From assembly GCA_963575745.1 (NCBI GenBank), contig CAUYUJ010000117.1, positions 62,001 through 117,995 of the forward strand: a stretch of DNA of 55,995 nt, in the 5' to 3' direction. Below are positions 16,061 through 48,133 of the stretch, piece by piece; positions within the stretch are counted from its first letter, which is position 1, and each line of letters starts with the position of its first letter. The translations under genes and the position numbers were made by a program. Origin of the DNA: Prorocentrum cordatum (taxonomy: Eukaryota). The notes below the pieces were generated by a model, which was given only the letters and a program-made list of their open reading frames with translations, made no database searches and was not told the DNA's origin.

Positions 16061-16076
16061 CCTCCTTGTCCCCCCT
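16061..16076. repeat. Target-site duplication of element C (left copy)
   Basis: CCTCCTTGTCCCCCCT is identical to 22590-22605. Confidence 0.9.
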
Positions 16077-16199
16077 GTGATCCTGTGATCCTCTGGCGGA
16101 CAGGTACACCTCCCACAGGGCGCACGAGCCGCTGGAAAAGGGGCAAGAGGGGCGAAGGGGGGTGGACGGTGGAGCAACCCGCCAGGCAGGAAAAGTGAC

Positions 16200-19100
16200 C
16201 TGACTAGGGTTGCCTGGGCGGGGCTGGCCAACTCTTCCCGAACGATTTGCGGGTCGAGGGGTCCACCCCCTTCTTTTAATGCGCCAACGACTGGCTAGCA
16301 CCTTTGTTCCTGGGCCCCTGTGGCACACCTCGATGAAATGCTTGGAGCGCATAGAGCCGTAGGCTCCGCACTGCCTGCGCCACACGATGCCTCCGCGGCC
16401 AATCCACAGCACATGAAAGCTGTGAGCTGAGCGCGCGAGCCTGGGAACTCCGCTGCATGGAGCCATGCACAGCCCTGTCCGTGAAGCCGCTTTGTCCCCA
16501 CAGATGGCACAACAAAACCGATGATACGATTTCCCATACCTACGGACATCATGGCCGTTGGGATTGGAAACCAACTGCAGGGGGCTGGGTCGGGGCCTCT
16601 TGGGAGCCCTAACCTTCTCCACATCAGGCAAATTCCCCTCCGAGAGAGCACATAAAACCGAAGCCTGCAACTGTCCTACCATACGAACCTGCTCAGAGAG
16701 GGAAACGTAACGGTCCTTGATCAGGGGATGGTGTGGGTGGCAACGGGCACTCCCTCCGCCAACCTGTCCGCCTCCCTGTTTCCCTTCCAGGCCCAGATCG
16801 GGTGGCCCCTCTCGAGAGCCTTGGTCAAGCTGAGGTGGGACTTAATTTTTATCAGGATTATGTTCTCCCGTCCAATGCCCTTGCCTTCCTGGAAGATGCG
16901 GGGCCACAGCTCGCTGAAGGCCAGGCGCTCGAGATTCTGCTGCGGCCCTCGCTCCCACACATCGATGACAAGCTTACAGTCCGTGACAACAGCGACAGGG
17001 CCTGCACCGCACATCTGGAAGGCCATCAGAAGAGCATAGATCTCCCCTCCTCCTGCCTCCTGGATGGGGTGGGGGAGGGGCCCGTAGCAGGAGCCGATGA
17101 TGTCACACGTGTCGCTGGCCATGCGGACTACCGCCCAAACTGCCCGAGTGAAGGGCAACTCGGGATCGATCGCCGAGCCATCGATGCACATGCGCACCTG
17201 AAACACGCCATTTTGCGGGTACTTCTCCCGCTGGATGGCTGGCGTCTGGAGCCCACATGGCCAGCCTGCCTCTGGGGTGCGCACCAGACACCTACCGTAA
17301 AAGATGGGGTCTGCTCCTGCTGCGTTGGCCTGGCTGACCGCATCGTCGACGTCCATGCTCTGGCGCAGCAAGTGCGTGCCCATGCAGCGGTAAAAACGGT
17401 GGGTCGGGGTCCCTGCTTCCACCTTGCACCGCCGGCAGTCAGGTCGGATCGCGCGCCCGTCGAGATGCAAAGTGCGTTGGGTCGGGTAACCTCCAGCCAC
17501 TAGTCCCGACAGCAGCCTAGCCTTGAGTTCCCCCTGGGCCCCTTCCACGCCTGAACTCCGTGATCAGCGAGGCCAGGGGCTTGATGAGGGGGGGAACTCC
17601 CACCGCGCCCCAGACTTTACTGCCCACTCTGAGCCCCATGGGGTCCCAGGTGTCCTGCTGGATGAGCTTGGTGAGAGACCTCTTCCCAAGATCCAAGACG
17701 TCTACCTCCTTCTTGCTTCTGGTGAGCCACCGGTGCCAACTGGGAGCCCCCCGCCCCAGCCGCTTCAGGGTAAGCACGACAGCCCCAGCAGGCCCGCGGA
17801 CATCGTGCCAGGCGAAGGATGGGGCCGTCTGGGCCGCCGAAAAACATGCGCGCATAGTCTCCGTAGCAGCCCATCCTTCACGAGCTGCACGGCTCCAGGC
17901 TATCAGCGGCAAAATATTGGCCTGGTACTCTGGGTCTGAGGCTGGGTTACTGGATAGCATGAACTCCAACGTGCGGCTTCGTCCCTTGGCAGCACCGAGC
18001 GAAGCATATGCCAGGGCCGCCCGCAGCCCCTTGATCCGACTGTCCGTCATGCCTCTGACACACGTACCGCGCAGCCCTGCAGGGAGCGCACCGCCACGGA
18101 CGACCTTCATCAGGCCGTGGAACGAGCTCCTCAAACTTCGGAATTTCGCAAGCCTAGCTCTGATCTGGCCGAATCTGGCGTTGAGCACCTTCTTGGACTT
18201 CAGCCCCTTGGGCCTCATTCCGAAATCGCAACCGAGATTCTGAGCGGCATCGATGGCCTGAAAAGCCCAGCGTTCAAGGCGCTTGGCCACACCTCGGGCC
18301 ACCTCCTTGCAGGACGAAGCGATTTTTCCCTTGGATTCAGATATGACCAGGCAGAGCTCTTCCAAAATCTGGCAGAGGTGGGTTGTCGCGTTGCCTAGGC
18401 CCACCTGCGCAAACTTCGCGGAGTCTGACGTGAACAGCGTGATGTCGTCAACAACGTTGAAGGGGAAGACTGTCGGCCACTTTTCAACCATAGAGTCCAG
18501 GGCCCCATAAGAAACAGCCTCAGGAGGCTGGTGGCGAAGGGGCAACCTGCAAGTATTGACGGGTGAACTTGCGTGACCATGGAGCAAACGCCTGCCAGGC
18601 TCAGCACACGAGGGCCACGGTACTGCTGCAGACACACGCGCAGCCTGTACAACGGGAAGCTCCACTTCACCGCTGCCTCGATCAGGGGGTAATGGCATAC
18701 CTTCTCATGGGCCTTGGTGAGATCCATGAGGGATATCCCCGCGGTGCCCCCCTGGAGGTTGGATGCTCGACAGACAGCGACTGCTCCCAGGCGGCCTGCT
18801 CGCAAGAGCGTCCCTGGACACCGTGCTGGTAGTCTCTGTAGTTTTCCCGCTCCCAAGACACCGCTTCAGCTCTATTGATCTTCCCGAAGACCCTCGACAC
18901 AGCAGTCATGATACCGATAGGCCGATCGCACCCCTCAGGTTTCAATAACTGCGCCAGGAGAACCAGGGAGATACAGGAACTCAGGAACCCGTCGGCCTCC
19001 TGCCAGTACCAGAGGAGCCCCAGACACTCCAGAACCCCATCAGAGAGGTTGCCGAACTCGCGGGGGTGGAGCATGTCGGCCCCCATGGCAGTGAAGGGCT

Positions 19101-20690
19101 TGAAACTCTTTGCAGCTGCTCGTATCTCAGCTGGCTGCCGGGGAGCTGGGCAAAGATCAGCGACTCCCAGTCCTCTCTCCTGGGCCTGCCCCCGAAGCTT
19201 CTGGTTCGGAAACGGGAGAGAGTCTGGGAACTGGCCAGCCTTAGGGTGGGGGGCCCAGACCTGGATCCAGAAGTTGAGCAGCTCATCCACCTGCGGCTGA
19301 GGCCCTGGCGGGGGGGGGGGCTTCGAGACTGGCACTGGGGATCCAGGCGGCAGCGGGCTGGGAGTACTTGTGGGCTTCCCCCCCACCCTGGCTGGCGGCT
19401 TCGGCTACCCGCTGACGCCACTTGGCTCCACGCTCGCTCTTGAAGCGCGACTCGCACTTAGTGGCGAGCTTGGTGGCCCGCACAAGCATGTCGCGCCACT
19501 CCTTGGTGGTGTACAGGAACAGAGTGTCGAGCGGTGGCAGCCAACCTTCCCACTCTTTACTGTTGAGCAGCCTTGCAGGTCCCTTGGTAAGCCTGTTGAT
19601 CAGCCTCGCACATTCCTCGTCGCCCCAAGAAACACCTTTCTTAGAGATCTGGTAGAGCTCGAGAGCCCAATGTGCGACCTGCCTCCAGCCCCTGGACCCG
19701 GCGGGCCCCGCGGGATAAGCACCCCCAGCAACCCGAAGAGCAGGCGCCCACGCAAACTTGGGAGGCTGGCCTCGTCCACGGTACTTGGGGCGCTCGAAAG
19801 GGTCGATGGCGTGAGCCTCCAACAGTTCATCCTCCATCTTCTGGAAGAAAGCCGAAAAGGTCGCGTCTAACTTCAGCTGGGAGCCGCGCGAGCTGGCAGC
19901 AGAGATAAGCTCTGACCAGTCTGGCGGCTCTGGTGATGGGCCGATTGGGAGATCGCGAGGGGAGGCACGCGGCCTACGCAGCACCCGAACTTTCGAGTCC
20001 AGCGGCTGGCCTGACAAAGTGAGGGTGATAGGCCAATGCGTCTTGATACCTGAGTCCTCGTTTCTCTTGACCCCTTTGACAACCTTCTGCAGAGCTCTAG
20101 TGATGATGAAGAAACCAATGCAACGCCAAGACTCCCCGTCGAGCGGCACGTTGGCTCAGAAATCGAAACGATGCAGCCTCCAAGGCGCTCTGGCCAGCCC
20201 CCGTCCGAAAGTTGCTCTGGAGCGCAGTTCCAGTCAGCGCCTATAATGAGAGGGGTGTCCATGCCAAAGAGGTATTCCCCAAGACGCGCCAGGATCTGAC
20301 TCCCTTCTGGCCCCAGGGGGTCCTTCTCGTCCAGGTGCACAGTGACTCCCAAGAAACCGCCTTCGATGAACGTGTTAATGTAAGTCACCTTGACCCGATG
20401 GGGGCTAGGCAGTGCACGCGTGACATTGGGGGGCTTCCCCATGCCAATACGCCTGCGCACAGCAATCCACACTCCTGGTGATACCCCGCCAGCCTCTGTG
20501 GCCACCGAGGCGTTCAGCGCGACGTCCCAACCTAGCTTCTTTAAAAAGTCCTCCTTAGCCGGCACAGAGTCACCTAGCACCCCGATCTCCTGGAGGAACA
20601 CCGCAGAGGCCTCCGTCTCCTTCGCATGGTGCGGCAATAACGATCCCCAGGATGTCGCATTGCACGTCTCCACTAGGAAACGTCGGGCTC
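16200..20690 (-). pseudogene. Element C ORF2: EEP endonuclease, reverse transcriptase, CCHC finger, RNase H, C-terminal Cys motifs (frameshifted)
   Basis: EN: ETCNATSW, FLQE, IIGADWN, IGFFI, THWPI. RT: AMGAD, KPEGCDRPIG, MDLTKAHE, ILAGCPFA, VVDDITL, NLGCDF. Finger: CRRC..HRFYRC. RNase H: IDGS, GEIYA, VTDC, IKSH, GNREAD. Confidence 0.9.
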
Positions 20691-21239
20691 TGCGCCGGCG
20701 GCCGCGAGAGGACCTACCTGGGGCCTGTGCGGGGGGGCTCTCTCGGAGGTGGCTGCGGCAATTGAAACTGAGACGATTGCTGGCGCCGCTGAGCGGCGCC
20801 AGCTGCACGGCGCCTAGGGCCCCCAGGTGGTCCCGAGGGGCCCTCACATGGCGTTGATGGGGCAGAAGCACGTGAGCCCCGACCCCCACGCTCAGGACGA
20901 AGCGCAGCTTTGCGCCCCCCCCCCCCTGCCCCCCCCCTCAGGTCCGTGACGGTTTTTTTTTGTGTTCTCGAAACGTGGCTGGGCAAAACGCGGGGAGGAG
21001 GGGGGAACGCCAGGAACGTCGTGACCCTGTTGGCGACGCTCCCGCGGAAAGTGGGGCTCCTGTGGCGCCCCCCCCCAGCCCCTCCAGCGATTCCCAACCG
21101 AGGGGGTCTTCCTGCGGGTTCCTGGACTCCTCCGAACCCAGTTCGCGCAGGTGCCAGCCCCTCGAGCTGGGGGGCCCGTGCCCGTCGACGCGGAACCCGA
21201 CGCCGTCGTGGGGGCCCCTGAACATGCCGCCGCCGTCGT

Positions 21240-22381
21240 AGCCGCAGATGTAGACTGATTTGGCGCCACTGCTGGCGCCCCTGCGGGCGCTACGCAGGCT
21301 GCTCGGCCGCCAGTGCCACTAGGAACACGACCCTGGCTTGTCCTCCTTACCCGCAGGTTTGAGCAGGCCTTGGGCTCGGACGCGGGGATCAGGCCCACCG
21401 ATGACTTTGCCCTTGCCCCCTTGCCCATGCCAATGACTCCTGCCACAGCTGGAGGATTGCCCTCTGACGCTGCGGCAGGCTCGCCTGCGGTGGCACTGGC
21501 GGGACCAGTCTCGCCCTCGTCAGTTTTGCGCTTCTTGTCCTGGAGGCGCCCCTTGGCCTTCTCGTGCTCGGCCTTCGCGGCGTTGGCTTTCTCTCGGGCC
21601 TTGCCGGACAGCTCCGTGGCAGACCGTGGCAGGCTGTCCAGCAACTCTTTTCCCTCTTCTTGGCCTGTTCCAAGTCGGACTCCTCGACATTCACGTAGTC
21701 GGCCAGACCGAAGAGAGACTCCACACCGCTGAACTTGATGACCGCTTCCCCGTCAAGAAGCTGGTCAAGGCTGATCGTAAGCACCTCCTCTGCCCCTGGC
21801 TCCTTGGCGGGGACAGCCGCCGCGTGGAGCTCCCTGATGGCTTGGGAGTAGGTCTCGTCCGGAACTGCAAGCTTCGTACGTGTCGTTTCCACCTTGGTCC
21901 GCTGCTCGTCGAGCTGCGCCTGCAGGGCCTCGAGAGCGTCGCAGTGGTCGAGGAGCTGCTGCTCGAGCCGCTTGATCTCCTGACCAGCCTTGTCAGCACG
22001 GGCCTTTGGCGGGTCAGGTGGTTGTGGAAGCGAAGCCTTCCATGCCAACTCATGCTGCTTTGCCAGCTGTGCGTTGCCTGCCTTGCGGGCCAACAGGATG
22101 AACTGCTGCACCTCAGATTCAGCGAGGCCTGCCACAGAAGGAAGAGCGCCAGGAGGAACACCCTCGGCCACGCCCGACTGGCCTTTCGCCTTGCCCTTGG
22201 ACTTGGCTTTGCCGCCGTAGGTGTCCGCATTCTTGGCCTCGTCCGCTGGCTTGGCATGCCCCTGCTTCCAGTGACGGCCGCAGTGCTTGCACTTAGGCGT
22301 ACTCTACATATTTTTCCCGCAGCCACAAGACTCACAGCGCCAACGCGATAGATTGTCTCGCCAGGGTGCGCCATGCGACAT
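21240..22381 (-). pseudogene. Element C ORF1: N-terminal W-x-C-x2-C...N...C-x2-C zinc finger and coiled coil
   Basis: ATG at 22381 gives MSHGAPWRDNLSRWRCESCGCGKNM*STPKCKHCGRHW, in frame with ORF 21389-22171 (heptad-rich). One premature TAG and a later frameshift; the 3' end is approximate. Confidence 0.75.
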
Positions 22382-22566
22382 GGCCCACTGGAAAGAGAAG
22401 ACGCGCGAGACCTTACCGTACTCGAGGTGTGCAGTGAGGTGTGACCTTGCAGACCTGCTGGCCCAGAAGGGAAAGAAAATATGCAGACTCCTGGCTGGGC
22501 AGCCGCCTGTGGAGCCTGCGGGCACGTCGGACGCCTCCTCGGGTGTGGGGGAGTCCACAGATGTTA

Positions 22567-22588
22567 CTTGAGCCAAAATGGCTACGGA
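22567..22588 (-). other. Perfect 22-nt dinoflagellate spliced leader at the 5' end of element C
   Basis: TCCGTAGCCATTTTGGCTCAAG matches the consensus DCCGTAGCCATTTTGGCTCAAG. It is followed by TAACAT, which is not a GT donor. Confidence 0.97.
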
Positions 22589-22589
22589 C

Positions 22590-22605
22590 CCTCCTTGTCC
22601 CCCCT
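22590..22605. repeat. Target-site duplication of element C (right copy)
   Basis: CCTCCTTGTCCCCCCT is identical to 16061-16076. Confidence 0.9.
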
Positions 22606-22714
22606 CCTCCTCCTCCTCCTCCTCCTCCTCCTCCTCCTCCTCCTCCTCCTCGTCCTCCTCCTCCTCCTCCTCCTCCTCCTCCTCCATCTCCTCCTCCTCC
22701 TCCTCCTCCTCCTC

Positions 22715-22774
<60 letters not shown>

Positions 22775-22844
22775 CTTGCTCCTCCTCCTTCTCCTCGCTG
22801 CTCGGGCCTCTACCCTCCTCCCTCCTGCCGGACCACCGCGGCTC

Positions 22845-22946
22845 CCGCAGCAGCGTGCGGTTCCGCAGCCGCAGACGCTGGTTTGAGCAGGCGCCCCACT
22901 CCGCCCACTCGGACAGCTCGCAGGGCGACGCCTCGCAGGCGGTGAC
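22845..22946 (-). CDS. Host TSP1-repeat protein exon (VTACEASPCELSEWAEWGACSNQRLRLRNRTLLR)
   Basis: Carries the CxLSEWxEWxxCS...RxRxR TSP1 signature. AG acceptor and GA donor join it in frame to the exon starting at 13034. Confidence 0.85.
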
Positions 22947-23050
22947 CTCGGCCGGGCACGCGCAGGACGGCGGGGGCAGAGGGCGCGCGCAGGATCGGCG
23001 GCGCACAGAGAGGGAAACAATAGGGAGCAGGCCCTCTGAGAAGGGCAGCG

Positions 23051-24008
23051 CTCCTCCTCCTCCTGCTCCTCCTCCTCCTACTCATCCTCCTCCTCCTCCC
23101 TCCCCCTCCTCCCTCCTCCCTCCTCCTCCTCCCTCCTCCCTCCTCTCCTCCCTCCTCCCTCCCTCCTCCTCCTCCTCCCCTCCTCCTCCTCTCTCCTCCT
23201 CCTCCTCCTCCTCCTCCTCCTCCTCCTCCTCCTCCTCCTCCTCCTCCCCCCTCCTCCTCCTCCTCCTCCTCCTCCCTCCTCCCTCCTCCCCCCTCCCTCC
23301 CTCCTCCTCCTCCTCCTCCTCCTCCTCCTCCTCCTCCTCCTCCTCCTCCTCCTCCTCCCTCTCCTCCTCCTCCTCCTCCTCCTCCTCCTCCTCCTCCTCC
23401 TCCTCCTCCTCCTCCTCCTCCTCCTCCTCCTCTCCTCCTCCTCCTCCTCCTCCTCCTCCTCCTCCTCCTCCTCCTCCCTCCTCCCCCTCCTCCTCCCCCT
23501 CCCCCTCCCCCCCCTCCCCCCCCTCCCCCCCCCCCTCCCCCCTCCCCCTCCCCCCCCCTCCCCCTCCCCCTCCCCTCCCCCCTCCCCCCTCCCCCTTCCC
23601 CCTCCTCCTCCTCCTCCTCCTCCTCCCCTCCTCCTCCTCCTCCTCCTCCTCCCTCCTCCTCTCCCTCCTCCTCTCCCTCCTCCTGCTCCTCCTGCTCCTC
23701 CTCTCTCCTGCTCCTCCTGCTCCTCCTGCTCCTACCTTCTCCTCCTCCTCCTGCTCCTCCTGCTCCTCCTGCACCTCCTGCTCTCCTGTTCCTCCCTCCT
23801 CCCTCCTCCCCATCCCTCCTCCCTTCTCCCTCCTCCTCCCTCCTCATCCTCCCTCCTCCCTCCTCCCTCCTCCTCCTCCTCTCCTCCTTCTCCTCCCTCC
23901 TCCTCCTCCTCCTCCTCCTCCTCCTCCTCCTCCTCCTCCTCCCTCCTCCTCCTCCCTCCTCCTCCTCCGCCCTCCTCCTCCTCCTCCTCCTCCTCCTCCT
24001 CCTCCTCC
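23051..24008. repeat. ~1-kb degenerate (CCT)n polypyrimidine tract
   Basis: Directly visible; it abuts the 3' end of element D. Confidence 0.95.
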
Positions 24009-24128
24009 TCGACTCGACTCGACTAAGGGGTGTACAAAGTTGCCCGTACCAAGAGGAAAAAGAGAAAGGGAGCATGCACATGCATTCGTGCAGGGGAAGG
24101 AAGGCAGCAGCAGCGGACAGAGAACCAC

Positions 24129-27100: not shown

Positions 27101-30100
27101 GCGTGCACAAAAGAGAAGCATAAATGAAGTCAGTGGCTTTCTGACGTAAGAAACGATGATGCATCTTGGAGATCGCGTTGCATTTATGAATGTTGCGCTG
27201 CGCGGCAGCCGTCCAAACATCACCACTGCCTTTGTGAAAAAAAGGCAACCTCCCCGAGCTTAAACCCCAAAGGCTAACGACAATGCGCAGCTGCTTTGAC
27301 CAGGATGGGAGCGAACACCTCGGACAACCCACAGGGATCAGCTTTAAACAACTCATCTCGAAAGAAATCAGGCCCCGCACTGCGGTGGGCCTGAGCCTTG
27401 CTGAACAACAGCTGCAAATCGAAGGGAGAGGGAATCGCCTCAATACTTCGGACGAGGGGGCCCAAGGGATTGATTCTACACTCGTCGTTATACTTACTGA
27501 TACCTTCACAGTACGAGAGCTCCTTGGCCCGTTCAATCTTCGCAAAATGAGCTTGCACAATTTCATGGACCTGTTCAGGGGTGCGGGCGGGTTTTCCTTG
27601 ACAATCCAACATAAACGGGAAACTCGGGGCCTGCTTCGGCGCTCGACCAGCGAAACGCAGAACACGGGAGAGATGGTTCCACTCACGTTGAGGGGCCCGT
27701 CCGTCGATGCTGGCCCTGACACTTGCCAGTTCCTTCTGCAGGAAGGCGTCTTTATCCAACTGAAAAGAACGAGCCACAAAAACGGACTTGCCTAGAAACA
27801 TGCTCTGAAGGCGAAGCATGAAGATATCAGCTCTTATGTCCTTGGGATCAGCACGGCGCGCAGAGATAACAAATTCTTTGGCGCATCCGCCGAGGTCTTC
27901 GAATATTCGCTTCCATTCCTGCATGATCGTCTGGTACGTCCTAGGCAACTGCAAGGCGATGTGGGGGGGCAGCTCAAAATCATCAAAACAAGAGCCGCCA
28001 TGCGACCCCGCAGACAATAGGTCTGGAGGTAACCCCAGGATCTCAGCAACTTGGCTAAGCCACTCCTGACTTTCCGTGTGCCCAAGTGACGTCACTGAAA
28101 GATCCCCTTTCCAAAGGCGGCAAGCAAAACGGCGGAGGGTATCAAGTTTCTGGGAGGACTGGAGAACGCCACTGGCTTTCATTAACACCCTCTTGATACC
28201 CCTCCTGACCCGAAGAAACAGAAGGGAGCGGTTAGACACATAGGGGGGTTGGGTGGAACGCACATCCTTGGGGAAGGCCTCAGCGGCCGCCGACATAACC
28301 TGATCCTGAACCGTGCTCAAGTGGGCATTCATGTCCGTCTCCCAAGGGATAGGCGGGATTTTGGCAATAGCCTCCCGAAAGGCCACCACCGCTTCAGGGC
28401 GCTTCGTTTTTAAACAGTCGAAGGAAGGGCAATCCTTTTTTTTCTTTCTGTGCACCGTCTCAGCCCAAGCAAATTTGACCTGCAGAGGAGCATGGTCAGT
28501 CTCTTCCATTCCGTTGTCGAAATGGTGCAGCACGCTCACCTCCTTGGCGTGCACAAAAAACGCTCTGGAGGTGGCAACATAGTCAATCCTGTGCTTTCCC
28601 CCTCCTTTCGCGACATACGTAAAACTCGGGTCGTGGGGGATAAAGGTATTGATCACTTTGAGCTCGAGGGAGGCCATTTTTTCATGGAAGACATCCCCAG
28701 GCTGGTCCTGACCCTGGATAAAGCCCTCAGCCCCAACGGCCTCACTAGTCACGTCGCCAACTCTGGCGTTAGCATCGACTAAAACCATGTCAATACTATA
28801 CTCCGAAATAAGACGCTCCGCCTGCTCCCAGAACTCCCGCACCTTAGGCATGCCTTGACGCACATGCGGGGCATGCAACGAGGCAACTCTGACAGCAAAG
28901 TGAGGCGCACTGACAGCCACAGCAAGGAAGCGGGGATGGGAGTGGAAGACAGAGTTGGTTGCAGCTCAGGAGGAGCTGCTTTCCTCCGGCTTTGCCATAA
29001 GGGGTCTCCCCATTAAACCAAACTTCGCACCCTAAGCCGGTGCCGTCAACCCCCGAGGAGACCGCCCAGAACTTACCTTGGCGGCGAATCCCTTTTTTGT
29101 TCCAGGCTTCTTGAAGCCCAACCACCAGGGCGTCGGTTTTTTCGAGTTGGGTCGTGATGATTTGAGTCCTCATGAATCTGCGCTTCCCAACCGACCCCAA
29201 CTTTTTCTCCACCGAGATGCTTTTTACATTGTACTGTATAACCGAGAAAGCGAAAGAGGCCTTGACCTTGATTCTTTCGTCTATGTGGGGCTCGGAGTCG
29301 GGCATGGGGACGCCCATGATCTGATGTCTTACTTTAAAGTCCTGCGGGCCATGAGGTAGCTGGTCCTCCGCATCAGCAGTGAACCGCTCAGGGTAGGCCG
29401 CGCGATCCTCAGCGCTCGCAAAATCAAGCCAACTCCACTCCAACGCGTGCACAAAAAGCGTGGTGCGCACAAGACGAGGCGGCAAGACAGTGACACGGTT
29501 GATGTTGCCCTGCATCACATTGCGGGCAATGAAATCAGCGAGTGTGTTCCAGGGATGCTCATTGTGGGCACGAATGTAACAGACCTCCAGAGGTCTGACA
29601 CGACGCACCGTCCGAATAATGGCAACAAGGAGACGCATAACCTCGTGCTTGGGGTCAATAGTAGAAACTCCATTGACAACATCAACAGCATTCTTGGAGT
29701 CAGAAAAAATAGAGACGGGACTCCTATCCTGCGAAGCAATAGATTCTCCTAAGATCTGCACGCAAATCCAAAATATGCCAAGGGCCTCATGGTGCAGAAT
29801 GTCTGGATCGTCTGTCGTTGGTCGAGCCTGGCAAGACGCCCCCCAGTCACAAGACCAGAAGCCCCCGAACGCGCAAAGGTTGTCAGAAAGCTTACGAACG
29901 CACACGGAAGCCCAAGCGCCCTGGGTACCATCACCAGGTTTGGTCGACCCGTCCGTAAAGAAGTGGAGCTCACGGTGAGGTTCGCTGCTAGGGGGGGAAT
30001 CCTCAAGAGCATTCCTGGACACCTCTGGAAGGTCAAAGCTGCTAACATCCTGGTCCAAAGGAGGGCAATTTACCTCCGTCAAAATCTGCTTGAGAGACGG

Positions 30101-32860
30101 CTGATCCGTAGGGATGTGTATCCTATAGAACGAATCTAAAAGCTCCCCAGCCTCGGGTGGGGGGTCGGGTGGGGGGGGGGGACAGGGTCGAGATCTCCAT
30201 GGGCTCCGTCCTGGGGAGGTCCTGGTGAGCGCACTGCCTGGCCTTCATAAGTAGGGCGGCTGTCCGTGACCGCGCTAGGGCAGGGAGAAGCAGGAATAGC
30301 TTCACACAGGCTGATCACGAATTTCGAATTGCCTGTGCTTGGTACGGGCAACCGCTTTTGTCCATCTTGGTCCGAGGTCTGCATGTGGCGGGAGCTGCAG
30401 ACGTCACTTGGGGCGTCGCATGGCTCCTGGGCTGCAACTACTTCTCCCTGCTGAGGCGGTGCTCCGCCGTTTGGCGGTACAACTGTGCTTCCACATTCAT
30501 CATTAAAAACCTGCGCTGCTCCCGTTGATGCGCGGGTGCGTAGCGGAGGACGGCGGCGCCCGCTGGGAGAAGGCAAATCCACGCTGGGCACGTCGTCGGA
30601 ATCGAAAACTCCTGGAGACTCGAATGCGTCAAACAAACGTGCTGGTGCTGGAAAGTGCCCCCACACGCTTCTGGGAAAGGGAATTGCCGTGGAAGTGACT
30701 AGTTCAGTCAAAACCTCACTCAAACAGCGAGCGCCTTCCACTGCAGACAGAACTGTCAGCCGCGTGACAGATCTGCTAGCACTGCTATGCACGCCTACTG
30801 TACCTCGTAGATGTGGTCGGTGGGGTCGTGGTTCTGGGATTGGCACCAGTGGTATGATGGCTCCGAATGCAGGGTCCGACACTTCAGAATCATACAGAAT
30901 ACCAATACCACCTGCCATGCGGTCCAACCGGTCTCGAGCCTGGTTTGCAGCTCTCCGCGCACGTTGAACATGTTCGGTGTGGCGTTCAGGGTCCTGTTCT
31001 TGTAGTCGTCTGAGGCTGCGCTGATACCGAAGCCTGCCACGACGTGCTCTCCGCCAGGCCCTGGAACAAATATCCCTAGCGATGGCCCAAGCATCAGCAG
31101 GATCCCGAATATCCGCCTGGACTGCTGGAAGCAATACCAACATATTGTGCACATATGGCGTACATATGGCCTGCCAATCCTGCATGGTCTGACCTGGACC
31201 AAGGATACTCTCCAAAATGTACCAATGTGGTACTTGGTCACGCACTTCATTCTCGATGCGACGCTGATGCCTTTGCGACTGTAGCCGAACAGGATCCATC
31301 TGTCTGGAATTTGCCCCACGTAGCGCAGTAGCTGCCACCGACACGGGTAACAGCTTGAGATTTGTCTGGACCATAGCAAACTCGTCAAACTCGCTGTGAT
31401 GGCTGTGATCCACGGGAGCTTCTCCATCTTGAACTTCGGAACTTTGCTCGATGTCTGCGTCCCATGGCGGAGGTGGCACGTACAATTGAAACTCGGGTGC
31501 GATGTAATGCTCTAGTGGTGCAGCTTTGACAACCGCTGGGTCTGCAGCATCGTGTGCAACCATCCACTCCAACAGCTGTTGTTCCTCAGCGATTGCTCGC
31601 TGTTGTTCTGCCGTGAGCAATTCATCCATGCCTCCTGAAGCCAGTAGCTGAGCCCGCCGCATGGCTGTGTCGAACATGCGCTGGAGTACATCGTCAATGT
31701 TGGTCTGGGCCGTGATGCCGAGCTCGCTAGCATGTCCCAAGCGGCGTCTGGCTGCGAGTAGTTCGTGCTGGTGGCGTCGCAGAATACCCAGCCACGCTAT
31801 CGGTCCAGCTCTCCATGCCACTGAGTAGCTACGCAGGTAGCTGAGACGGTGAGGGTGATCATTCGCGAATACAGACTCACATATATCACCTGCTACCGCC
31901 CGAATAGTGTCAGTATCTCCGTTGTGTAGGGGCCGCAAAAACTCATCATGAAGAAGACGGTTGCTTACCATGGGAATGCACCATGGCAGCCAATCCCGTC
32001 TCGCTTGATCCTCTGACCACAATGCTGAGTCGTAGGCCCAGCAGGGGCAAAATTGCTCAAGGTGAGACATCAAGTAGCTTCGGGCTGATAAGGCCCTTCT
32101 CTGCGCAGCTCGGTCATCACCTCGCTGTAGTCCCCCATGTGCCGTAGGATAGTGCTCATGGGGGGGGGGGCAACGCACGCTCCTTTGAATTGAGAGCTTG
32201 GCTCACCCGCATGGGCTCTAAGGGTGCGCGCCCCCCCCCCCCCATAGAACGCCATAGGGGTCGCACTTCGTCTGATTGTGAGGGCCCAAGGCCCTGTGCA
32301 CAATGTCTGCCCACTCCACGAGTGTGGGCTGGGAAGCCGCTTCCTTCCCCGAACTGGGAGCGGTCCAGCCGCGGTCCCTGTTGGCGACAGAGCCTCTGGT
32401 ATAGGCATGGGCCCCTGAGGCTGCCAGTCGCGGGGAACATCCTGGAGCATTGACGGCCCCATCTCCAGGGTGCTGGTACAGCTTGTAGAAGAAATGATGA
32501 TACGATTCGTCAACTACCAGGTCCCGAGGTAGAAGTGAAACTTGTTGGCTGGGTCTTGGCCGTGCTGTACCCGGCGGCGTGACGCCACACTGCTGCTGCC
32601 GAGGTACTCCTGACGGCGCAACTGCGTAGTGAGACTGAGGTATTGGCCGTGTAGATCCCAACGGCTTAGCGAAAGCAACTGTCATTGATTCTTTCAAATC
32701 AAAGCTATAACTGTGCAGACCATCAGGAGCTGCGTGTACTGGCTGAATTGGCTCTGTACGACTATCCATCGACGATCCAATCTTTGAATTATTAACGTAG
32801 TAGTAGGTCTCCTGCAGTCCCCAGTAGACCTTCTTCTTCTTCTTGGTGATCTCGTTCACA
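24129..32860 (-). pseudogene. Element D ORF2 polyprotein (frameshifted)
   Basis: RNase H at ~29520-29970: FFTDGS, HHEALG, FSDSKNA, IRAH, WNTLAD. EN at ~28480-29250: QYNVKS, GLQEA, SLHAPH, VDANAR, HRIDYV, TDHAPL. RT at ~26300-27390: SAGPD, CIDL, GSILAGDVF, FVDDL, NSAKTK, ILG. Fingers: CYTCG..HVGKTH and CPVC at ~25390-25515. Confidence 0.88.
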
Positions 32861-35243
32861 TGTCTGTATCCGCTCTGCGTTCGACTGTCTGAGATTTGCT
32901 CTCGGGTGTGGCACCCGTCGGCACCAGGCTGGCTCCCGTTTCGTCGGTAGCGGAGCGTCTGGCGCCCCGAGCCTTCTGTGGTGTGCTGGGTACTGCGACT
33001 GAGGCTGCTGTTGGTACCGCCGTCGATGCCGCCGCCTCTGGACAGAAACCAGGTTGCCGCAGGGAAGCCTGCAGCCTGGCAGCAGACTCCGCCGCTTCTG
33101 TCCGCTGGATCGCATCCAAAGCTTCCGCCTCCTCTACCTTTTCTCACAACTTCCAACGCTGCTGCCACCTCTGACCTCTCGTCCTGAGAGCTGAGGATCT
33201 CGATCGGGGCGGGGGCCGTGACCGAGTGGGAAGGTGCTGGAATGAACTCCGCTTCGAGGGGCTGAGTCGGCGAGATCTCGATGGACGGCTGGGCAGATGG
33301 CTGCGGGGTAGGCGGTATCCCCCAGAACTGAGTCGGTCCCATAGCCCCTCCGCGTTCCCACATAGACGCTGGTACTGTTGCTGGCTGCGCTGCTGGCGAC
33401 CCCTGGGGCTCCGACGCAGGAGGTGTAGGAGACAAGGGCGGGATCTGCGTCGGCGTCAGTGGTGTAGCTGAGTCGGGCGTAGGGCGAGGGGCCAGCCCCG
33501 CTGCCGAGAAGATCGCAACTGGGGCTCCCATGGGTCCTTTTCCTGGCTGATGCTGAAAAAGATGGGGCCCCACCTGGTAGGGATCGGTCTGGGCCCGGAG
33601 AGCTCCACGCCTTTGCCCAACTTGCCGCCCTTCATAGTCTCCAACTGCATCGCGATGTCGGGGGGCATCCCTGGTATCTGCTGCTGCTGCTGCTGGTGGA
33701 AGATGGCTGAGGCCTGAGCTTGTAGCTGAGCATGTTGCTGCTGAGCATGCTGAGCCTCCAGCTGGGCACGGGCCTGAATGGCTTGTTCGTGCTGAGCCTG
33801 CTGAGCCTGGGCTTGGGCTTGCTGGTTGCCCTGCAGCTGACCCTGCTGCATCTGCGGAGCCTGGGCATGATGTTGCTGCTGGAGATGTTGTTGCTGACCA
33901 GCCGTGGTCTGCACCTGAGCCACTTGCTGCTGAGCCGGGCTCTGAGCATGGGTCCATGTATTGCCAGATAACTGTTGCTGCATGTGCTGACCCTGGCCTT
34001 GGAACTGGTACATCAACTGCTGCTGCTGCTGCATGAAACTGGCCAAGAGAGCTTGCTGGTGCTGCTGTTGCTGGTCCATTTCCTCCTGACGCTTCAGCAT
34101 CACCGAGAAGCAGTCGGCCATCGTGGCGTTCTGGCTCGGTGTATACCCTAGGCGAGAGGGAATCGAGCGTCTGGCTTCCACAGCTGCCTGAGACGATGAC
34201 GGTAGTGACGGCCTGGACCTGGGCGGATATTCGCCCGTCGGCTGCTGCTGAGGCGATGTAGGCGGAGGGTGCTGCGGGGGCGGGCAAGGTGGGCCCTCTG
34301 AGGGCGCCACAGGAGCCTGCGCTTGGCCCGTCACAGCCGCCAAGTAACTCTGCCCATGGGTCCACTGATGCCTCTGTTGAGGAGCACCATCCATATTCAC
34401 GTCGCAGTTGGTCGTCGCCTCCTGTTGTGCCGCAGCTCGTTGCGCTGCCAAGGTAGCCTCCTCCTCCTGAATGGCCTGCTCGATGTCCTGCACTGACTGG
34501 CGAGACTCTCCGACCAACTCGATCAGCTCGTCCTCCTTTGACTCCAGATCTCGTAGCTTGGATTGGAGGTCCTTTAGCTGCTCCTCGAAGCGAGACTGAC
34601 GCATGCGTGCGTCTGCTAGTTGCTGGCCTAGAGGTTTCAAGAGCGTGATGGCGTAGCTGATCATGGCCATCTCTTCTCGCTCCTGAGTCTCCTCTTTGCC
34701 TGCCCTCTTCGCCGCAACCACAAGGCGAGCCAGAGTTGTGAGGCGCTCTTTCGCTCTCTTGCTCCAGTTGGCGCGGAGGTTCTCCTGAAGCGGGGGAGCC
34801 CAGCGCTCCCATTCTGGGTGGGACTCGGCCGTCTCCTTGAGGGCGGGGGTGAGCTTGGCGACCACCTGCTGAGTCTCGCGGTCGATCGCCTGAGCCTCCT
34901 GCCACGGCGGCTTGTGCTTGTCCCTGTTGCGCTGGGCAGAACGAGCACGAGTGGGCGCTTTGTAGGTAGTACCACATGCACAGTACCAAGAAGCTGCACT
35001 GTTGAGCTGACCGCAACCGCAACGCCAACGCTGGTCGGCACGCCAGGCCATGTACTGCTGATCTCGTCCTGCTTGGCTGAGGTTGCCCGCAGACGGGGCT
35101 GAATGATGGCGGGCCAACAGGCGCCGTGCCCTCCACACACGTAGAAGGGTCCTGGCAATGGACCTCTTCTTTCGGGCTCGGCGATGCCAGCTGGGCTCCG
35201 CTGGCTGGAAGGTATGCGTGATGGGCAACGGGGTGCCTCGCAC
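32856..35243 (-). pseudogene. Element D ORF1: zinc finger (WRCGCGQLN...CACG), coiled coil, Gln-rich and Pro-rich tail
   Basis: ORF 33456-35243 continues through frameshifts into the Pro-rich frame and the ORF ending at 32856. It sits directly after the SL and 5' UTR. Confidence 0.75.
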
Positions 35244-35348
35244 GCGGGAAGAAAGGATAGTGGTCAGCCTACGTGAGGTGCTGACGCACTGAAGGTCAGA
35301 CGACTTGCTGCGGGTCGGCCTCCCCAGGCGGACCCGTCAAGCCCAAAC

Positions 35349-35387
35349 CTTGAGCCAAAATGGCTACGGTACACAAATGGCTACGGT
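35349..35387 (-). other. Perfect DinoSL (35349-35370) preceded by a partial SL copy (35375-35387)
   Basis: Sense strand reads ACCGTAGCCATTT-GTGT-ACCGTAGCCATTTTGGCTCAAG-GTTTGGG. Confidence 0.97.
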
Positions 35388-35388
35388 A

Positions 35389-36325
35389 CCTCCTCCTCCC
35401 ACCTCCTCCTCCTCCTCCTCCTCCCCTCCTCCTCCTCCTCCTCCCATATCCTCCTCCCTCCGCCTCTCCCCTCCTCACTCCTCCCCCTCTCCACCTCCCC
35501 TCCCCTCCTCCTCCCACCGTCCCTCCTCCCTCCTCCCTACCACTCCTCCCTCCACTCCACCTCCCTCCTCCCTCCTCCCCCTCCTCCCTCCCTTCCCTCT
35601 CCCTCCTCCCTCCTCCTCCTCCCCTCCTCCCTCCTCCCATCCTCGCCCCTCTCCTCCCCTCCTCCCTCCACCCTCCTCTATCTCCCTCCCCCTCCCTCTT
35701 CCTCCAAACCTCCTCCCTCCCTCCCTACCCCCTCCCTCCCCCTCCCACCTCCCCCCTCCTTTCCACCCTCCACCCCTTCCACCCCTCCATCCAGGTATAT
35801 CCCCATCCTATCCCTCCTCCTCCTGCTCCTCCCTGCTCCTCCTGCTCCTCCTGCTCCTCCTGCTCCTCCTCTCCTCTGACTGCTCCTCCTGCTCCCTCCT
35901 GCTACTCCCTGCTCTTTTCTGCACCTCACCTGATCCTCCTGCTCCTCTCCCAGCTCCTCCCATCCTCTCCTCCTCCTCCTACCTCCTCCCTCCCTCCCTC
36001 TTCCTCCCTCCTCCTCGCTCCCTCCTCCTCCATCCTCCTCCCCTCCCTCCACACCTCCCACCCTCCCTCCTCCTTCCTCCTCCTTATCCTCCGTCCTCCT
36101 CCTTCTCCTTCTCCTTCCTCCTCCTCCTCCTCCTCCTCCCCCACTCATTCCTTCTCCTCCTACCTCCTCATCTTCCACCTCCTCCTCCTCTTCCTCCTCT
36201 CTCCCTCTCTCTCCTACCTCCTCCTCCCACTCCTCCTCCCTCCACCTCCCCTACCTCACCCCCTCCTGCTCCTGCTTCCTGTCCTCCATCAAGGACCTCC
36301 CCTCCTCCTCCCTCCTCCTCCTGCT
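35389..36325. repeat. ~0.9-kb degenerate (CCT)n tract
   Basis: Directly visible; it abuts the 5' end of element D. Confidence 0.93.
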
Positions 36326-36674
36326 CCATCGAAGGTTTTTCCCTTTTCGAAGGTTTTCCCGCGCGGCTTTATCAGAAGCTCTCTGCGGCTTCGGAGAAGG
36401 CGTGGCGAGCTTCTCGGAGTACCAGACACCTCCTGGGCCTTCCGCAGAGGCCCAACCCCTCTCTACATTCGCCCTTGGGCGCGCCGCCGATAGGAGGGAA
36501 TAGGTGACCCAAATTTCAGGTTGGGGGGGGTGCGGGTTCCATGTTTTTTCCCAACCATCCTGTGGTGTTGGGTCCTCGTTTTGAAGAGACGGTGCCCCGC
36601 GTTCCCCTCCTCCTTCCTCCTCCCCCTCCTCTCTCCTCCCCCTCCTTGCCTCTGCTCTCGGCACACCTCTCACG

Positions 36675-37448
36675 CGTTTCGTAGCCCCATAGGGAGCTCC
36701 ACCGAAGGCCCCAGTGGGGGTGTTCGCATGCGGTTCCCCCACCCAGGGCAGCGTTTCGTGGCCCCATAGGGAGCTCCACCGAAGGCCCCAGTGGGGGTGT
36801 TCGCATGCGGTCCCCCCACCCAGGGCAGCGTTTCGTAGCCCCATAGGGAGCTCCACCGAAGGCCCCAGTGGGGGTGTCCACATGCGGTTCCCCCACCCAG
36901 GGCAGCGTTTCGTGGCCCCATAGGGAGCTCCACCGAAGGCCCCAGTGGGGGTGTCCACATGCGGTTCCCCCACCCAGGGCAGCGTTTCGTGGCCCCATAG
37001 GGAGCTCCACCGAAGGCCCCAGTGGGGGTGTCCACATGCGGTTCCCCCACCCAGGGCAGCGTTTCGTGGCCCCATAGGGAGGAGCTCCACCAAAGGCCCC
37101 AGTGGGGGTGTCCACATGCGGTTCCCCCACCCAGGGCAGCGTGTCGTGGCCCCATAGGGAGCTCCACCGTAGGCCCCAGTGGGGGTGCCCGCATGCGGTT
37201 CCCCCACCCAGGGCAGCGTTTCGTAGCCCCATAGGAAGCTCCACCGTAGGCCCCAGTTGGGGTGCCCGCATGCGGTTCCCCCACCCAGGGCAGCGCTTCG
37301 TGGCCCCATAGGGAGCTCCACCGAAGGCCCAAGTGGGGGTGCCCGCATGCGGTTCCCCCACCCAGGGCAGCGTTTCGTAGCCCCATAGGGGGCTCCACCG
37401 AAGGCCCCAGTGGGGGTGTTCGCATGCGTCTCCCCTACCCAGGGGTAG
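36675..37448. repeat. 77-bp tandem satellite, ~10 copies
   Basis: Unit CGTTTCGT(A/G)GCCCCATAGGGAGCTCCACCGAAGGCCCCAGTGGGGGTGT..CATGCGGTTCCCCCACCCAGGGCAG starts at 36675, 36752, 36829, 36906, 36983, 37060, 37140, 37217, 37294 and 37371. Confidence 0.97.
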
Positions 37449-48116: not shown

Positions 48117-48133
48117 AGCCATTTTGGCTGCAG
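48117..48133 (+). other. Relict spliced leader upstream of the transposase-like gene
   Basis: AGCCATTTTGGCTGCAG versus AGCCATTTTGGCTCAAG (15/17), about 33 nt before the ATG at 48167. Confidence 0.75.

What the first reader, a model, noticed from the sequence alone, without database searches (positions are those of the whole stretch)
16061..35388. Two unrelated full-length LINEs both start with a perfect spliced leader: possible trans-splicing-dependent, promoter-less retrotransposons
Seen: elements C and D differ in domain order, yet each begins exactly with the 22-nt DinoSL. In C the SL lies inside a 16-bp TSD, so it was inserted as part of the element. Both are sense to the host TSP1 gene; C is inside an intron, and D probably is too, because the downstream exon starts mid-domain. 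Established: dinoflagellate mRNAs gain DinoSL by trans-splicing, and relict SLs mark retroposed genes. Inference: the genomic SL ends in AG, which could act as a trans-splice acceptor on host read-through pre-mRNA. That would release a capped element RNA with a regenerated, identical 5' end, solving the LINE 5'-end/promoter problem without an internal promoter or ribozyme.
Basis: partly seen in the sequence, partly recalled or inferred. Interest (0 to 1): 0.9.

Follow-up and report, generated by a model that had tools for sequence, protein, structure and literature searches.

The report
Dinoflagellate LINEs starting with spliced leader
Two very different jumping genes in a dinoflagellate genome each begin with the exact 22-letter tag that this organism splices onto all its messenger RNAs, which shows they were copied from tagged RNAs and hints, without proving, that they reuse the tag to be expressed again.

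Summary
The core observation holds. Two perfect DinoSL copies lie on the minus strand, at 22588-22567 and 35370-35349 (0 of 100 shuffles gave any). Each is the first 22 nt of a LINE-like element. C is about 6.5 kb and reads EN-RT-RNaseH. D is about 11.4 kb and reads RNaseH-EN-RT. In C the leader lies inside an exact 16-bp target-site duplication, so it entered with the element.

Three points are new. Both copies are coding-dead (frameshifts, stops). C is a multi-copy family in one DNA run (307 contigs). One unrelated database ORF reads Arg-run, then leader, then an ORF1 homologue (P0026).

The host "TSP1 gene" rests on one sub-threshold motif. No RNA evidence could be obtained, and the 5' ends of other copies could not be read.

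What is shown: the element RNAs were trans-spliced and were reverse-transcribed to the cap, as happens for dinoflagellate retrogenes. What is not shown: that the elements lack a promoter, or that the leader's final AG is reused as acceptor. That remains a plausible inference.

My five literature searches that bear on this found no description of leader-headed LINEs. I rate this a new variant of a known kind.

The parts
22590..22605 (-). 5' copy of C's 16-bp target-site duplication (AGGGGGGACAAGGAGG)
   Evidence: Exact repeat of 16076-16061. It directly abuts the element. The shorter GGGGGGACAAGG occurs only at these two places.
22589..22589 (-). One extra G between the duplication and the leader. 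It may have been copied from the cap.
   Evidence: Sequence. The cap origin is my inference.
22567..22588 (-). Perfect 22-nt DinoSL (T form), the first bases of element C
22382..22566 (-). C 5' UTR (185 nt). No relict leader, no Rfam match.
20895..22381 (-). C ORF1: an N-terminal RanBP2-like zinc finger followed by a coiled coil. It is broken by a TAG at 22306-22304 and by a frameshift near 21650.
   Evidence: 28 relatives at E<=1e-3. P0008 continues in frame where the window copy shifts.
20020..20680 (-). C apurinic-type endonuclease, split over two frames (coordinates approximate)
   Evidence: Pfam Exo_endo_phos at E 0.0055 and 16.9 bits, below the cut-off of 24.5. Motifs read (..FLQE....GADWN....THWP..). 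The motif names are recalled.
17520..19404 (-). C reverse transcriptase and thumb, split over three frames
   Evidence: No Pfam hit. The three pieces tile at 51%, 53% and 35% identity onto one continuous stretch of the Prorocentrum cordatum protein P0002. Motifs KPEG..RPIG, MDLTKAHE, ILAGCPFAT and FNVVDD read by eye.
16754..17494 (-). C zinc-binding motif and RNase H
   Evidence: Pfam zf-RVT at 13 bits and RNase_H at 13.8 bits, both sub-threshold
16076..16091 (-). C 3' tail, (GGATCACA)x2
16061..16076 (-). 3' copy of C's target-site duplication
22606..24007 (-). (GGA)n-rich tract between C's 5' end and D's 3' end. It is part of the purine-rich tract into which both elements inserted.
24008..24024 (-). 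D 3' tail, (AGTCG)x3
24338..26077 (-). D C-terminal region with a C2H2-like motif
   Evidence: Pfam Zf-C2H2_ZNF451_C at E 0.027, weak.
26400..27530 (-). D reverse transcriptase, split over three frames (coordinates approximate)
   Evidence: Pfam RVT_1 at E 0.0028 and 17.8 bits, below the cut-off of 29.6. Motifs FSFVDD and LLVNSAKTK read.
28480..29200 (-). D apurinic-type endonuclease, split over two frames (coordinates approximate)
   Evidence: No Pfam hit. Motifs YNVKS, VGLQEA, VDANARVGD, RIDYV and TDHAPL read. The motif names are recalled.
29516..29728 (-). D RNase H, upstream of the endonuclease
   Evidence: Pfam RNase_H at E 5.2e-5 and 23.9 bits, cut-off 25.8. NCBIfam RNase HI at E 0.015.
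30139..32202 (-). D open frame of 688 aa with no recognised domain
33459..35051 (-). D ORF1: an N-terminal zinc finger of the same pattern as C's, then a Q-rich coiled coil
   Evidence: hhalign against the C-type ORF1 family matches the finger only (probability 2.3%).
35052..35348 (-). D 5' UTR (297 nt)
35349..35370 (-). Perfect 22-nt DinoSL (A form), the first bases of element D
35371..35389 (-). A second, 3'-truncated leader copy (ACCGTAGCCATTT plus GTGT). Together with the real leader it forms a 15-nt direct repeat.
   Evidence: Its origin is unexplained.
35390..35788 (-). (GGA)n-rich tract upstream of D

Best explanation
C and D are copies of two very divergent endonuclease-plus-reverse-transcriptase retrotransposons of the non-LTR, LINE type. 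Both were inserted by target-primed reverse transcription, in the same orientation, into one purine-rich (GGA)n tract.

Like other dinoflagellate mRNAs, the RNA that served as template had received the 22-nt DinoSL by trans-splicing. Reverse transcription then ran to the capped 5' end, so the leader became the first 22 bases of the DNA copy. This is the process already known to tag dinoflagellate retrogenes. Here it is caught on the retrotransposons themselves.

Both copies in this window are dead. Those steps are shown or follow directly from the anatomy.

One step is inferred. Every full-length copy must start with a leader, and neither copy carries a relict behind it. Lineages that persist therefore need a way to make an RNA that again starts with exactly one leader. 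I think the likeliest route is a fresh trans-splice onto the AG that ends the encoded leader, on a transcript that starts upstream of the leader or inside it. The confidence given applies to the shown part. I put the inferred route at about 0.35.
For: The two perfect leaders are far beyond chance.

The leader lies inside C's exact 16-bp duplication, with an extra G at the junction. Both elements have short tandem-repeat 3' tails. The self-comparison shows no terminal repeats.

Endonuclease, RT and RNase H signals appear in LINE-like order. Motifs were read. C's RT pieces tile onto a continuous homologue.

C is multi-copy. In DNA run X1, 307 contigs were laid over all 30 bins: 40 at >=99%, 70 at 95-99%, 102 at 90-95% and 95 below 90% identity. 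Summed depth is about 24 over the 3' 4.6 kb and about 12 over the 5' 1.8 kb. Other copies carry indels at 17543, 16752/16753, 20067, 20132 and 21650, where the window copy changes frame.

The two leaders differ at position 1 (T in C, A in D), as the known leader variants do (PMC7245778, passage). They are therefore not copies of each other.

One independent case exists. P0026 reads adapter-like MCIRDR, a run of Arg, SVAIWLK, about 32 codons, and then an ORF1 homologue with the zinc finger. SVAIWLK is the translation of the leader lacking one T.

Neither C nor D has a relict behind its leader.
Against: Every Pfam domain hit is below its curated cut-off, and C's RT has no hit at all. PDB sequence searches found no RT or endonuclease. 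The AlphaFold model of the continuous homologue was useless (pLDDT 41). The LINE identity therefore rests on anatomy and on motifs read by eye.

No RNA evidence was obtained.

The leader status of other C and D copies is unknown. Only 1 of the 20 ORF1 relatives I fetched shows a leader, and most of them start at a called start codon, so they are uninformative. P0026's DNA could not be seen.

Many frame breaks sit oddly beside a perfect leader and a perfect duplication. The template may already have been defective, or the assembly may carry indel errors.
Confidence: 0.8

Rival explanations
1. The elements have no promoter. Copies that sit in sense orientation in host introns are transcribed by read-through, and the AG at the end of the encoded leader is the trans-splice acceptor. 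Each round thus releases a capped RNA with an identical 5' end.
For: There is exactly one leader and no relict in both elements, and in P0026. No known ribozyme was found. A splice at the terminal AG would leave no trace in transcripts, so relict-based surveys could not have seen it (my inference from the methods passage of PMC7245778). All minus-strand features between 4 kb and 48 kb of the window point the same way.
Against: The host gene and its introns are not established. No RNA data exist. The acceptor would be AAG preceded by a purine-rich flank, and (GGA)n itself offers many competing AG sites upstream. The acceptors documented inside relict leaders are the inner AG and a TG (PMC12014239, passages). 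Both copies here are dead, so they say nothing about expression.
Confidence: 0.3
2. The encoded leader is itself the start signal or a hard-coded leader. Transcription starts at or within it, either through the T-rich motif proposed as a promoter in retrogenes or through a downstream internal promoter. The element would then not depend on host read-through.
For: Song, Chen and Chen 2018 (PMC6050394, passage read) argue that the retroposed DinoSL carries a TTT(G) promoter motif. They also argue that this explains why few retrogenes carry several leaders. There is a parallel seen in passing: giant-virus contigs encode the exact leader right after an AT-rich motif and a median of 47 nt before an ATG.
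Against: The consensus scan tool covers sigma-70 promoters only and was not used. A transcript that starts inside the leader would still need a fresh leader to restore the full 22 nt, so this rival merges with the one above.
Confidence: 0.2
3. The leader came from template switching. The reverse transcriptase jumped from the 5' end of the element RNA onto an SL RNA or onto another leader-bearing mRNA, as in U6-L1 chimeras.
For: D's 5' junction is irregular. It carries an extra, 3'-truncated leader copy plus GTGT. This looks like a jump or stutter at the end of the template.
Against: In both elements the full leader ends exactly at its exon boundary and runs straight into the 5' UTR. No SL RNA intron sequence is present. 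Two unrelated elements plus P0026 show the same exact junction. A jump may explain D's extra fragment, but not the leaders themselves.
Confidence: 0.05
4. The elements are site-specific for SL RNA genes, like SLACS, CZAR and CRE1 of trypanosomatids, and the 'leader' is the remnant of the target gene.
For: Only the co-occurrence of a leader and a LINE.
Against: C's duplication encloses the leader, so the leader is not target DNA. The flanks are (GGA)n, not an SL RNA gene. Rfam finds no SL RNA or other RNA family in the window. The leader is complete, and the endonuclease motifs are of the apurinic type.
Confidence: 0.02

Closest known systems
DinoSL-tagged retrogenes of dinoflagellates (Song et al. 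2017, PMC5585692, and Song et al. 2018, PMC6050394, passages read; Slamovits and Keeling 2008, recalled)
   Same: A leader added to the RNA by trans-splicing is copied into DNA at the 5' end of a retroposed unit. Song 2017 notes that 'RNA-dependent DNA replication' genes are enriched among leader-tagged genes. RT genes with relict leaders have therefore been counted implicitly.
   Different: Here the tagged units are the autonomous retrotransposons themselves. They have a complete leader, a target-site duplication that encloses it, and no relict. The papers I read attribute retroposition more to LTR elements (PMC6050394) and do not describe leader-headed LINEs.
SymbioLINE and other LINEs of Symbiodiniaceae (de Mendoza et al. 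2018, PMC5890265, passages read)
   Same: Two-ORF LINEs that are abundant in dinoflagellate genomes, often in introns.
   Different: A term search of that paper found 'spliced leader' and 'DinoSL' 0 times. ORF1 there is a DNA methyltransferase. Here it is a zinc finger plus a coiled coil.
L1Tc/ingi of trypanosomatids, with the Pr77 internal promoter and an HDV-like ribozyme (abstracts seen in the listings)
   Same: LINEs in an organism that trans-splices all its mRNAs. They face the same problem of defining their own 5' end inside host co-transcripts.
   Different: By those abstracts, L1Tc solves the problem with an internal promoter and a self-cleaving ribozyme, and its transcripts are unspliced. 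Here no ribozyme family is detected, and the RNA did carry the leader.
SLACS, CZAR and CRE1, the SL-RNA-gene-specific LINEs (recalled; only search listings seen)
   Same: LINEs physically joined to spliced-leader sequence, which may exploit it for expression.
   Different: Those elements insert into SL RNA genes at a fixed site. Here the leader is part of the inserted copy, and the target is a (GGA)n tract.
Trans-spliced transposon transcripts in Hydra (PMC12220107, passage read)
   Same: About 30% of transposon Iso-Seq reads carry a spliced leader, so transposons use the host's trans-splicing.
   Different: That is an RNA-level observation. The passage does not report genomic copies that begin with the leader.
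R2 elements, co-transcribed with 28S rRNA and released by an HDV-like ribozyme (recalled)
   Same: A LINE without its own promoter, whose 5' end is cut out of a host transcript.
   Different: There the cutting is done by the element's own ribozyme. Here, if the model holds, it would be done by the host's trans-splicing machinery, which would also add a cap.

Membership tests
Non-LTR (LINE-type) retrotransposon with apurinic-type endonuclease | Reverse transcriptase domain | tested here: inconclusive
   D: Pfam RVT_1 at E 0.0028 and 17.8 bits, cut-off 29.6. C: no Pfam, NCBIfam or PDB hit. RT motifs were read by eye. The fold model failed.
Non-LTR (LINE-type) retrotransposon with apurinic-type endonuclease | Apurinic-type endonuclease upstream of the RT | tested here: inconclusive
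   C: Exo_endo_phos at E 0.0055 and 16.9 bits, cut-off 24.5. D: no hit. Catalytic-type motifs were read by eye.
Non-LTR (LINE-type) retrotransposon with apurinic-type endonuclease | Target-site duplication flanking the whole insertion | tested here: met
   C: exact 16 bp abutting both ends. D cannot be read, because its flanks are (GGA)n.
Non-LTR (LINE-type) retrotransposon with apurinic-type endonuclease | No terminal repeats, and a simple-repeat or A-rich 3' tail | tested here: met
   The self-BLAST shows no terminal repeats. The tails are (GGATCACA)x2 and (AGTCG)x3.
Non-LTR (LINE-type) retrotransposon with apurinic-type endonuclease | Multi-copy family with a 5'-truncation profile | tested here: met
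   C only: 307 contigs of run X1 at 80-100% identity over all 30 bins, with summed depth about twice as high over the 3' part. The tool warns that depth is not copy number.
DinoSL-tagged retrocopy | DinoSL encoded in DNA at the 5' end of the retroposed unit | tested here: met
   Perfect 22-nt leader at both 5' ends.
DinoSL-tagged retrocopy | Truncated relict leader behind a full leader, the sign of repeated recycling | tested here: not met
   Best match to the 15-nt relict within 45 nt after the leader is 6/15 for C and 7/15 for D, which is random level. D instead has a 3'-truncated copy in front of the leader.
SL-RNA-gene-specific LINEs (SLACS, CZAR, CRE1) | Insertion inside an SL RNA gene | tested here: not met
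   The leader lies inside C's duplication. The flanks are (GGA)n. No RNA family was detected.
Ribozyme-terminated LINEs (L1Tc, R2 type) | HDV-like or other self-cleaving ribozyme at the 5' end | tested here: not met
   Rfam found nothing at the gathering threshold over the window, and nothing at E<=1 over 801 bases around each 5' end. An undescribed ribozyme is not excluded.

The most novel reading that the evidence does not exclude
A group of dinoflagellate LINEs may have built their life cycle around the host's spliced leader. The leader is written into DNA at every round. It then serves as the element's exact 5' boundary and as its own trans-splice acceptor, and perhaps as its start signal. 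Any sense transcription through a copy would then yield a capped, full-length, translatable RNA without an element promoter or ribozyme. These elements may also aim at (GGA)n tracts. If so, they are also prime candidates for the long-sought machinery behind the massive gene retroposition of dinoflagellates.
Probability: 0.3. Interest if true: 0.85.

Novelty: new variant of a known kind. Interest (0 to 1): 0.6.

Why it matters
LINEs everywhere face two linked problems. They must be transcribed after landing without a promoter, and they must define an exact 5' end. The known answers are internal promoters and self-cleaving ribozymes. A leader that is copied into DNA and then respliced would be a third answer, one that borrows a host RNA-processing step.

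Independently of that model, these insertions show that LINE-type machinery in a dinoflagellate copies leader-capped RNA to its last base and leaves a target-site duplication. This bears on an open question: which reverse transcriptase makes the thousands of leader-tagged retrogenes. One review I read favours LTR elements (PMC6050394).

The finding also gives a direct test. C's leader starts with T and D's with A, so cDNA from individual copies can tell whether the leader on the RNA is fresh or encoded.

Tried and rejected
- **Own genome:** none is held, so copies could not be tabulated.
- **Earlier scan notes:** nothing relevant.
- **Sequencing runs:** only X1 truly holds the stretch (share 0.34). 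The others, at about 0.07, hit low-complexity ends only. X2 was laid in 2 of 30 bins, X22 in 4 and RNA run X17 in 1. This gives no cover of the element body and no statement on expression. The 5' junction 22590-22625 was skipped as a repeat.
- **Metagenome scan with C ORF1:** 199 pattern matches, none confirmed.
- **DNA pattern GGAGG plus leader in metagenomes:** 17 loci, 13 of them unique. None of the 17 encodes a relative of the 32 stored proteins or of the 14 window ORFs at E<=0.01.
- **Viral contigs:** the leader pattern found 119 stretches, almost all giant-virus contigs and none LINE-like. The C-type RT alignment A3 found none.
- **Homologue search with the leader plus 5' UTR frame (98 aa):** no candidate.
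- **Other homologue searches:** D's endonuclease ORF gave one weak hit. C's RT ORF gave two Prorocentrum cordatum proteins.
- **PDB sequence searches:** no RT or endonuclease.
- **NCBIfam:** only a weak RNase HI hit.
- **AlphaFold of P0002 with a 7-row alignment:** pLDDT 41, so no fold search was run.
- **SLACS-type and template-switch readings:** rejected for the reasons given under rivals.
- **Literature:** the five searches that bear on this returned no paper describing LINEs whose genomic copies begin with a spliced leader. One further search failed on a malformed term. Supplements were not opened.

Full report
**What is in the sequence.** The 21-nt core of the dinoflagellate spliced leader occurs exactly twice in the 55,995-base window. 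Both copies are on the minus strand, at 22587-22567 and 35369-35349. None of 100 dinucleotide-preserving shuffles produced a match, even with three mismatches allowed. With the preceding base these are the 22-nt forms that begin with T (22588) and A (35370). Both are among the variants described for this leader (PMC7245778, passage read). Element C spans 22588 down to 16076, and element D spans 35370 down to about 24008.

**Anatomy of C.**
- The leader is followed by a 185-nt untranslated stretch.
- ORF1 starts at 22381 with a RanBP2-like zinc finger and continues as a coiled coil.
- Next comes an apurinic-type endonuclease, then a reverse transcriptase, then a zinc motif and RNase H.
- The tail is two copies of GGATCACA.
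- The 16-mer AGGGGGGACAAGGAGG abuts the tail at 16076-16061 and recurs at 22605-22590, one base before the leader. Its 12-nt core occurs nowhere else in the window.

The leader therefore lies inside the target-site duplication and was part of what was inserted. The single extra G between the duplication and the leader may be a copy of the cap. That is my inference.

**Anatomy of D.**
- The leader is followed by 297 nt.
- ORF1 starts at 35051 with a finger of the same pattern and then a Q-rich coiled coil.
- A 688-aa frame with no recognised domain follows.
- Then come RNase H, endonuclease, reverse transcriptase and a C-terminal region with a C2H2-like motif.
- The tail is three copies of AGTCG.

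D's target duplication cannot be read, because both flanks are (GGA)n. In front of D's leader lies a second copy of its first 13 bases followed by GTGT. Together with the true leader this forms a 15-nt direct repeat. This is the mirror image of the canonical relict, which lacks the 5' end. I cannot explain it with confidence. A stutter or jump of the reverse transcriptase at the end of the template is my best guess.

**How good the LINE assignment is.** It is weaker by database scores than by anatomy.
- Every Pfam hit is under its curated cut-off. For C: Exo_endo_phos 16.9 bits, RNase_H 13.8 and zf-RVT 13. For D: RVT_1 17.8 and RNase_H 23.9.
- PDB sequence searches and NCBIfam added nothing.
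- C's three RT pieces lie in three frames. They tile at 51%, 53% and 35% identity onto one continuous stretch of a Prorocentrum cordatum protein, P0002, which is evidently a chimeric gene model.
- An AlphaFold model of P0002 was useless (pLDDT 41).

The assignment rests on five things: the duplication; the simple-repeat tails; the absence of terminal repeats; endonuclease and RT motifs read by eye in the expected order; and the behaviour of C as a repeat family.

**C is a family, and this copy is dead.** In DNA run X1, 307 contigs were laid on C. Of these, 40 are at >=99% identity, 70 at 95-99%, 102 at 90-95% and 95 below 90%. They cover all 30 bins. Summed depth is about 24 over the 3' 4.6 kb and about 12 over the 5' 1.8 kb. 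This fits 5' truncation, although the tool warns that contig depth is not copy number. Other copies carry single-base indels at 17543, 16752/16753, 20067, 20132 and 21650, exactly where the window copy changes frame. Relatives of ORF1 continue in frame where the window copy shifts (P0008). C also has an in-frame TAG in ORF1. D has at least four frame changes and one stop. 'Full-length' is therefore true of extent only. Indel errors in the assembly cannot be excluded.

**How different C and D are.** tblastn with 14 ORF pieces found no cross-match at E<=1e-3. A profile of C-type RT against D's RT aligned only the catalytic ..VDD.. motif (E 0.0042, probability 8%). D's ORF1 matches the C-type ORF1 profile only at the zinc finger (probability 2.3%). 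They are two very distant lineages that share an ORF1 ground plan.

**Evidence from elsewhere.**
- An exhaustive search with leader plus UTR plus ORF1 of C (P0004, TAG read as X) found 28 proteins at E<=1e-3. I fetched 20 of them and saw five more in alignment A1. Three were not looked at.
- Most start at a called start codon and say nothing about what lies upstream.
- One of them, P0026, reads MCIRDR (which I recall as an adapter translation), a run of Arg, then SVAIWLK. About 32 codons further on it continues as an ORF1 homologue with the finger.
- SVAIWLK is the translation of the T-form leader lacking one T. An Arg run is what (AGG)n encodes. This looks like an independent leader-headed copy of a related family, in the same purine-repeat context. 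Its DNA could not be fetched.
- All other routes to 5' ends of further copies failed: no genome is held; the junction was skipped in the read layout; two metagenome scans found no relatives; the viral collection held none; and the cluster look-up was off.

**Target preference.** All four ends of C and D abut tracts that are GA-rich on the element's sense strand. Such tracts make up 7.8% of the window, or about 11% if the two elements are left out. Two sense-oriented hits by chance would be expected in roughly 1% of cases. The Arg run in P0026 is a third hint. Both elements may sit in what was once a single tract, so they are not fully independent.

**The host gene.** Among 138 minus-strand frames of >=75 aa and 33 Cys-rich frames of 30-74 aa outside the elements, only one shows anything like a thrombospondin repeat. 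It lies near 8944, and its hit (18.5 bits, cut-off 41) covers only the first half of the domain. I could not establish a host gene, its introns or its transcription. What can be said is this: the weak TSP1-like motif, a decayed leader-like site at 5796-5776, C, D and a third, 5'-truncated RNase H-bearing element at 42447-47900 all point the same way. A decayed leader-like site at 48113-48133 starts a plus-strand frame. This resembles a strand switch between one-directional gene blocks. That is an inference.

**Mechanism.**

*Shown.* The template RNAs carried the leader and were copied to their 5' end by a machinery that leaves a target-site duplication. This is the retrogene process (PMC5585692, PMC6050394, PMC12014239; passages read), seen here on autonomous elements.

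*Inferred.* Every full-length progeny copy starts with a leader. A lineage that survives must therefore make an RNA with exactly one leader from a template that already encodes one. Recycled retrocopies normally betray themselves by a relict. Among 13 unique environmental leader loci, three carry one at >=10/15 directly behind the leader. C and D score 6/15 and 7/15, which is random level.

Three routes would give a single leader:
2. the encoded leader acting as promoter, as Song et al. 2018 proposed for retrogenes partly on the ground that few retrogenes have several leaders (PMC6050394), which would still need route 1 to restore the full 22 nt;
3. transcription of the leader as a hard-coded part of the element from an internal promoter.

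No ribozyme family is detectable. Against route 1, the acceptor would be AAG behind a purine-rich flank that itself offers many AGs. The acceptors reported inside relict leaders are the inner AG and a TG (PMC12014239). In its favour, a terminal-AG splice leaves no relict, so transcript surveys could not have seen it. I put route 1 at about 0.3-0.35. I put the plain 'leader-tagged LINE retrocopies' reading at 0.8.

**Comparison with what is known.**
- Trypanosomatid L1Tc uses an internal promoter and an HDV-like ribozyme and makes unspliced RNA (abstracts in the listings).
- SLACS-type elements insert into SL RNA genes (recalled). C's duplication excludes that reading here.
- In Hydra about 30% of transposon Iso-Seq reads carry a leader (PMC12220107, passage).
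- De Mendoza et al. describe Symbiodinium LINEs without any mention of the leader (0 occurrences).
- Song 2017 found RT-related GO terms enriched among leader-tagged genes, so such copies have been counted but not described.

The five literature searches that bear on this returned no description of LINEs whose genomic copies begin with a spliced leader. I did not open supplements.

**Verdict.** Its simplest reading is an expected consequence of universal trans-splicing plus LINE retrotransposition, and I did not find it described. The bolder model is coherent and testable but has no direct support here. I rate it a new variant of a known kind, with interest 0.6.

Noticed in passing
L001-L119 (viral contigs): The exact DinoSL occurs in 119 stretches of the viral collection, almost all on AT-rich giant-virus MAG contigs. 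Of 134 unique sites, 127 have A at position 1. In 123 of 132 the upstream 40 nt are >=70% AT, often as a conserved motif such as ..AAATATAnnTTTTA. In 99 of 120 the first ATG (median 47 nt downstream) opens an ORF of >=100 aa. It looks as if viruses of dinoflagellates hard-code the host leader behind their promoters. One literature search showed no paper on this.
   Followed up: partly
L067:1-5319: This contig ends exactly at a DinoSL. A 788-aa frame with a viral RdRP_1 domain follows the leader (E 4.9e-7, above the cut-off). It resembles the leader-bearing dinoflagellate RNA virus described in PMC10235124.
   Followed up: partly
window 42447-47900 (minus): A third retroelement remnant carries zf-RVT and RNase H signals (sub-threshold). 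It is followed by a 1262-aa frame full of PQRGEGLGH-like tandem repeats. No leader is recognisable, so it is probably 5'-truncated.
   Followed up: partly
window 48113-48133 (plus) and 5796-5776 (minus): Two decayed leader-like sites, each with 5 mismatches in 21. The first has an exact 12-nt core. About 0.14 such sites are expected by chance in the window. The first precedes a 741-aa plus-strand frame with no Pfam hit. They may be older retroposed units.
   Followed up: partly
window 22381-20895 and 35051-33459 (minus); P0005-P0032: Both ORF1s start with the finger pattern W.C..C...N......C..C. The C type belongs to a family of at least 28 database proteins with a finger, a Gly-rich linker and a coiled coil, and with no Pfam family.
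   Followed up: partly
P0002 (Prorocentrum cordatum protein, 915 aa): This gene model, named as a Rab-GAP TBC protein, carries a continuous C-like endonuclease fragment and RT in its first ~640 residues and the TBC domain only at 771-867. It is probably a chimeric annotation across an intronic LINE.
   Followed up: partly
L120-L136 (metagenome contigs): Among 13 unique loci chosen for GGAGG before the leader, six read TGGAGG(G)T directly before the leader core. Several of these are repeated units (L121/L129/L133). This may be a conserved element upstream of SL RNA genes. The pattern I searched with biases the observation.
   Followed up: no
window 36674-37444 and 42573-43782: Long tandem arrays with periods of about 77 and 66 bp, at 85-95% identity between units.
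   Followed up: no
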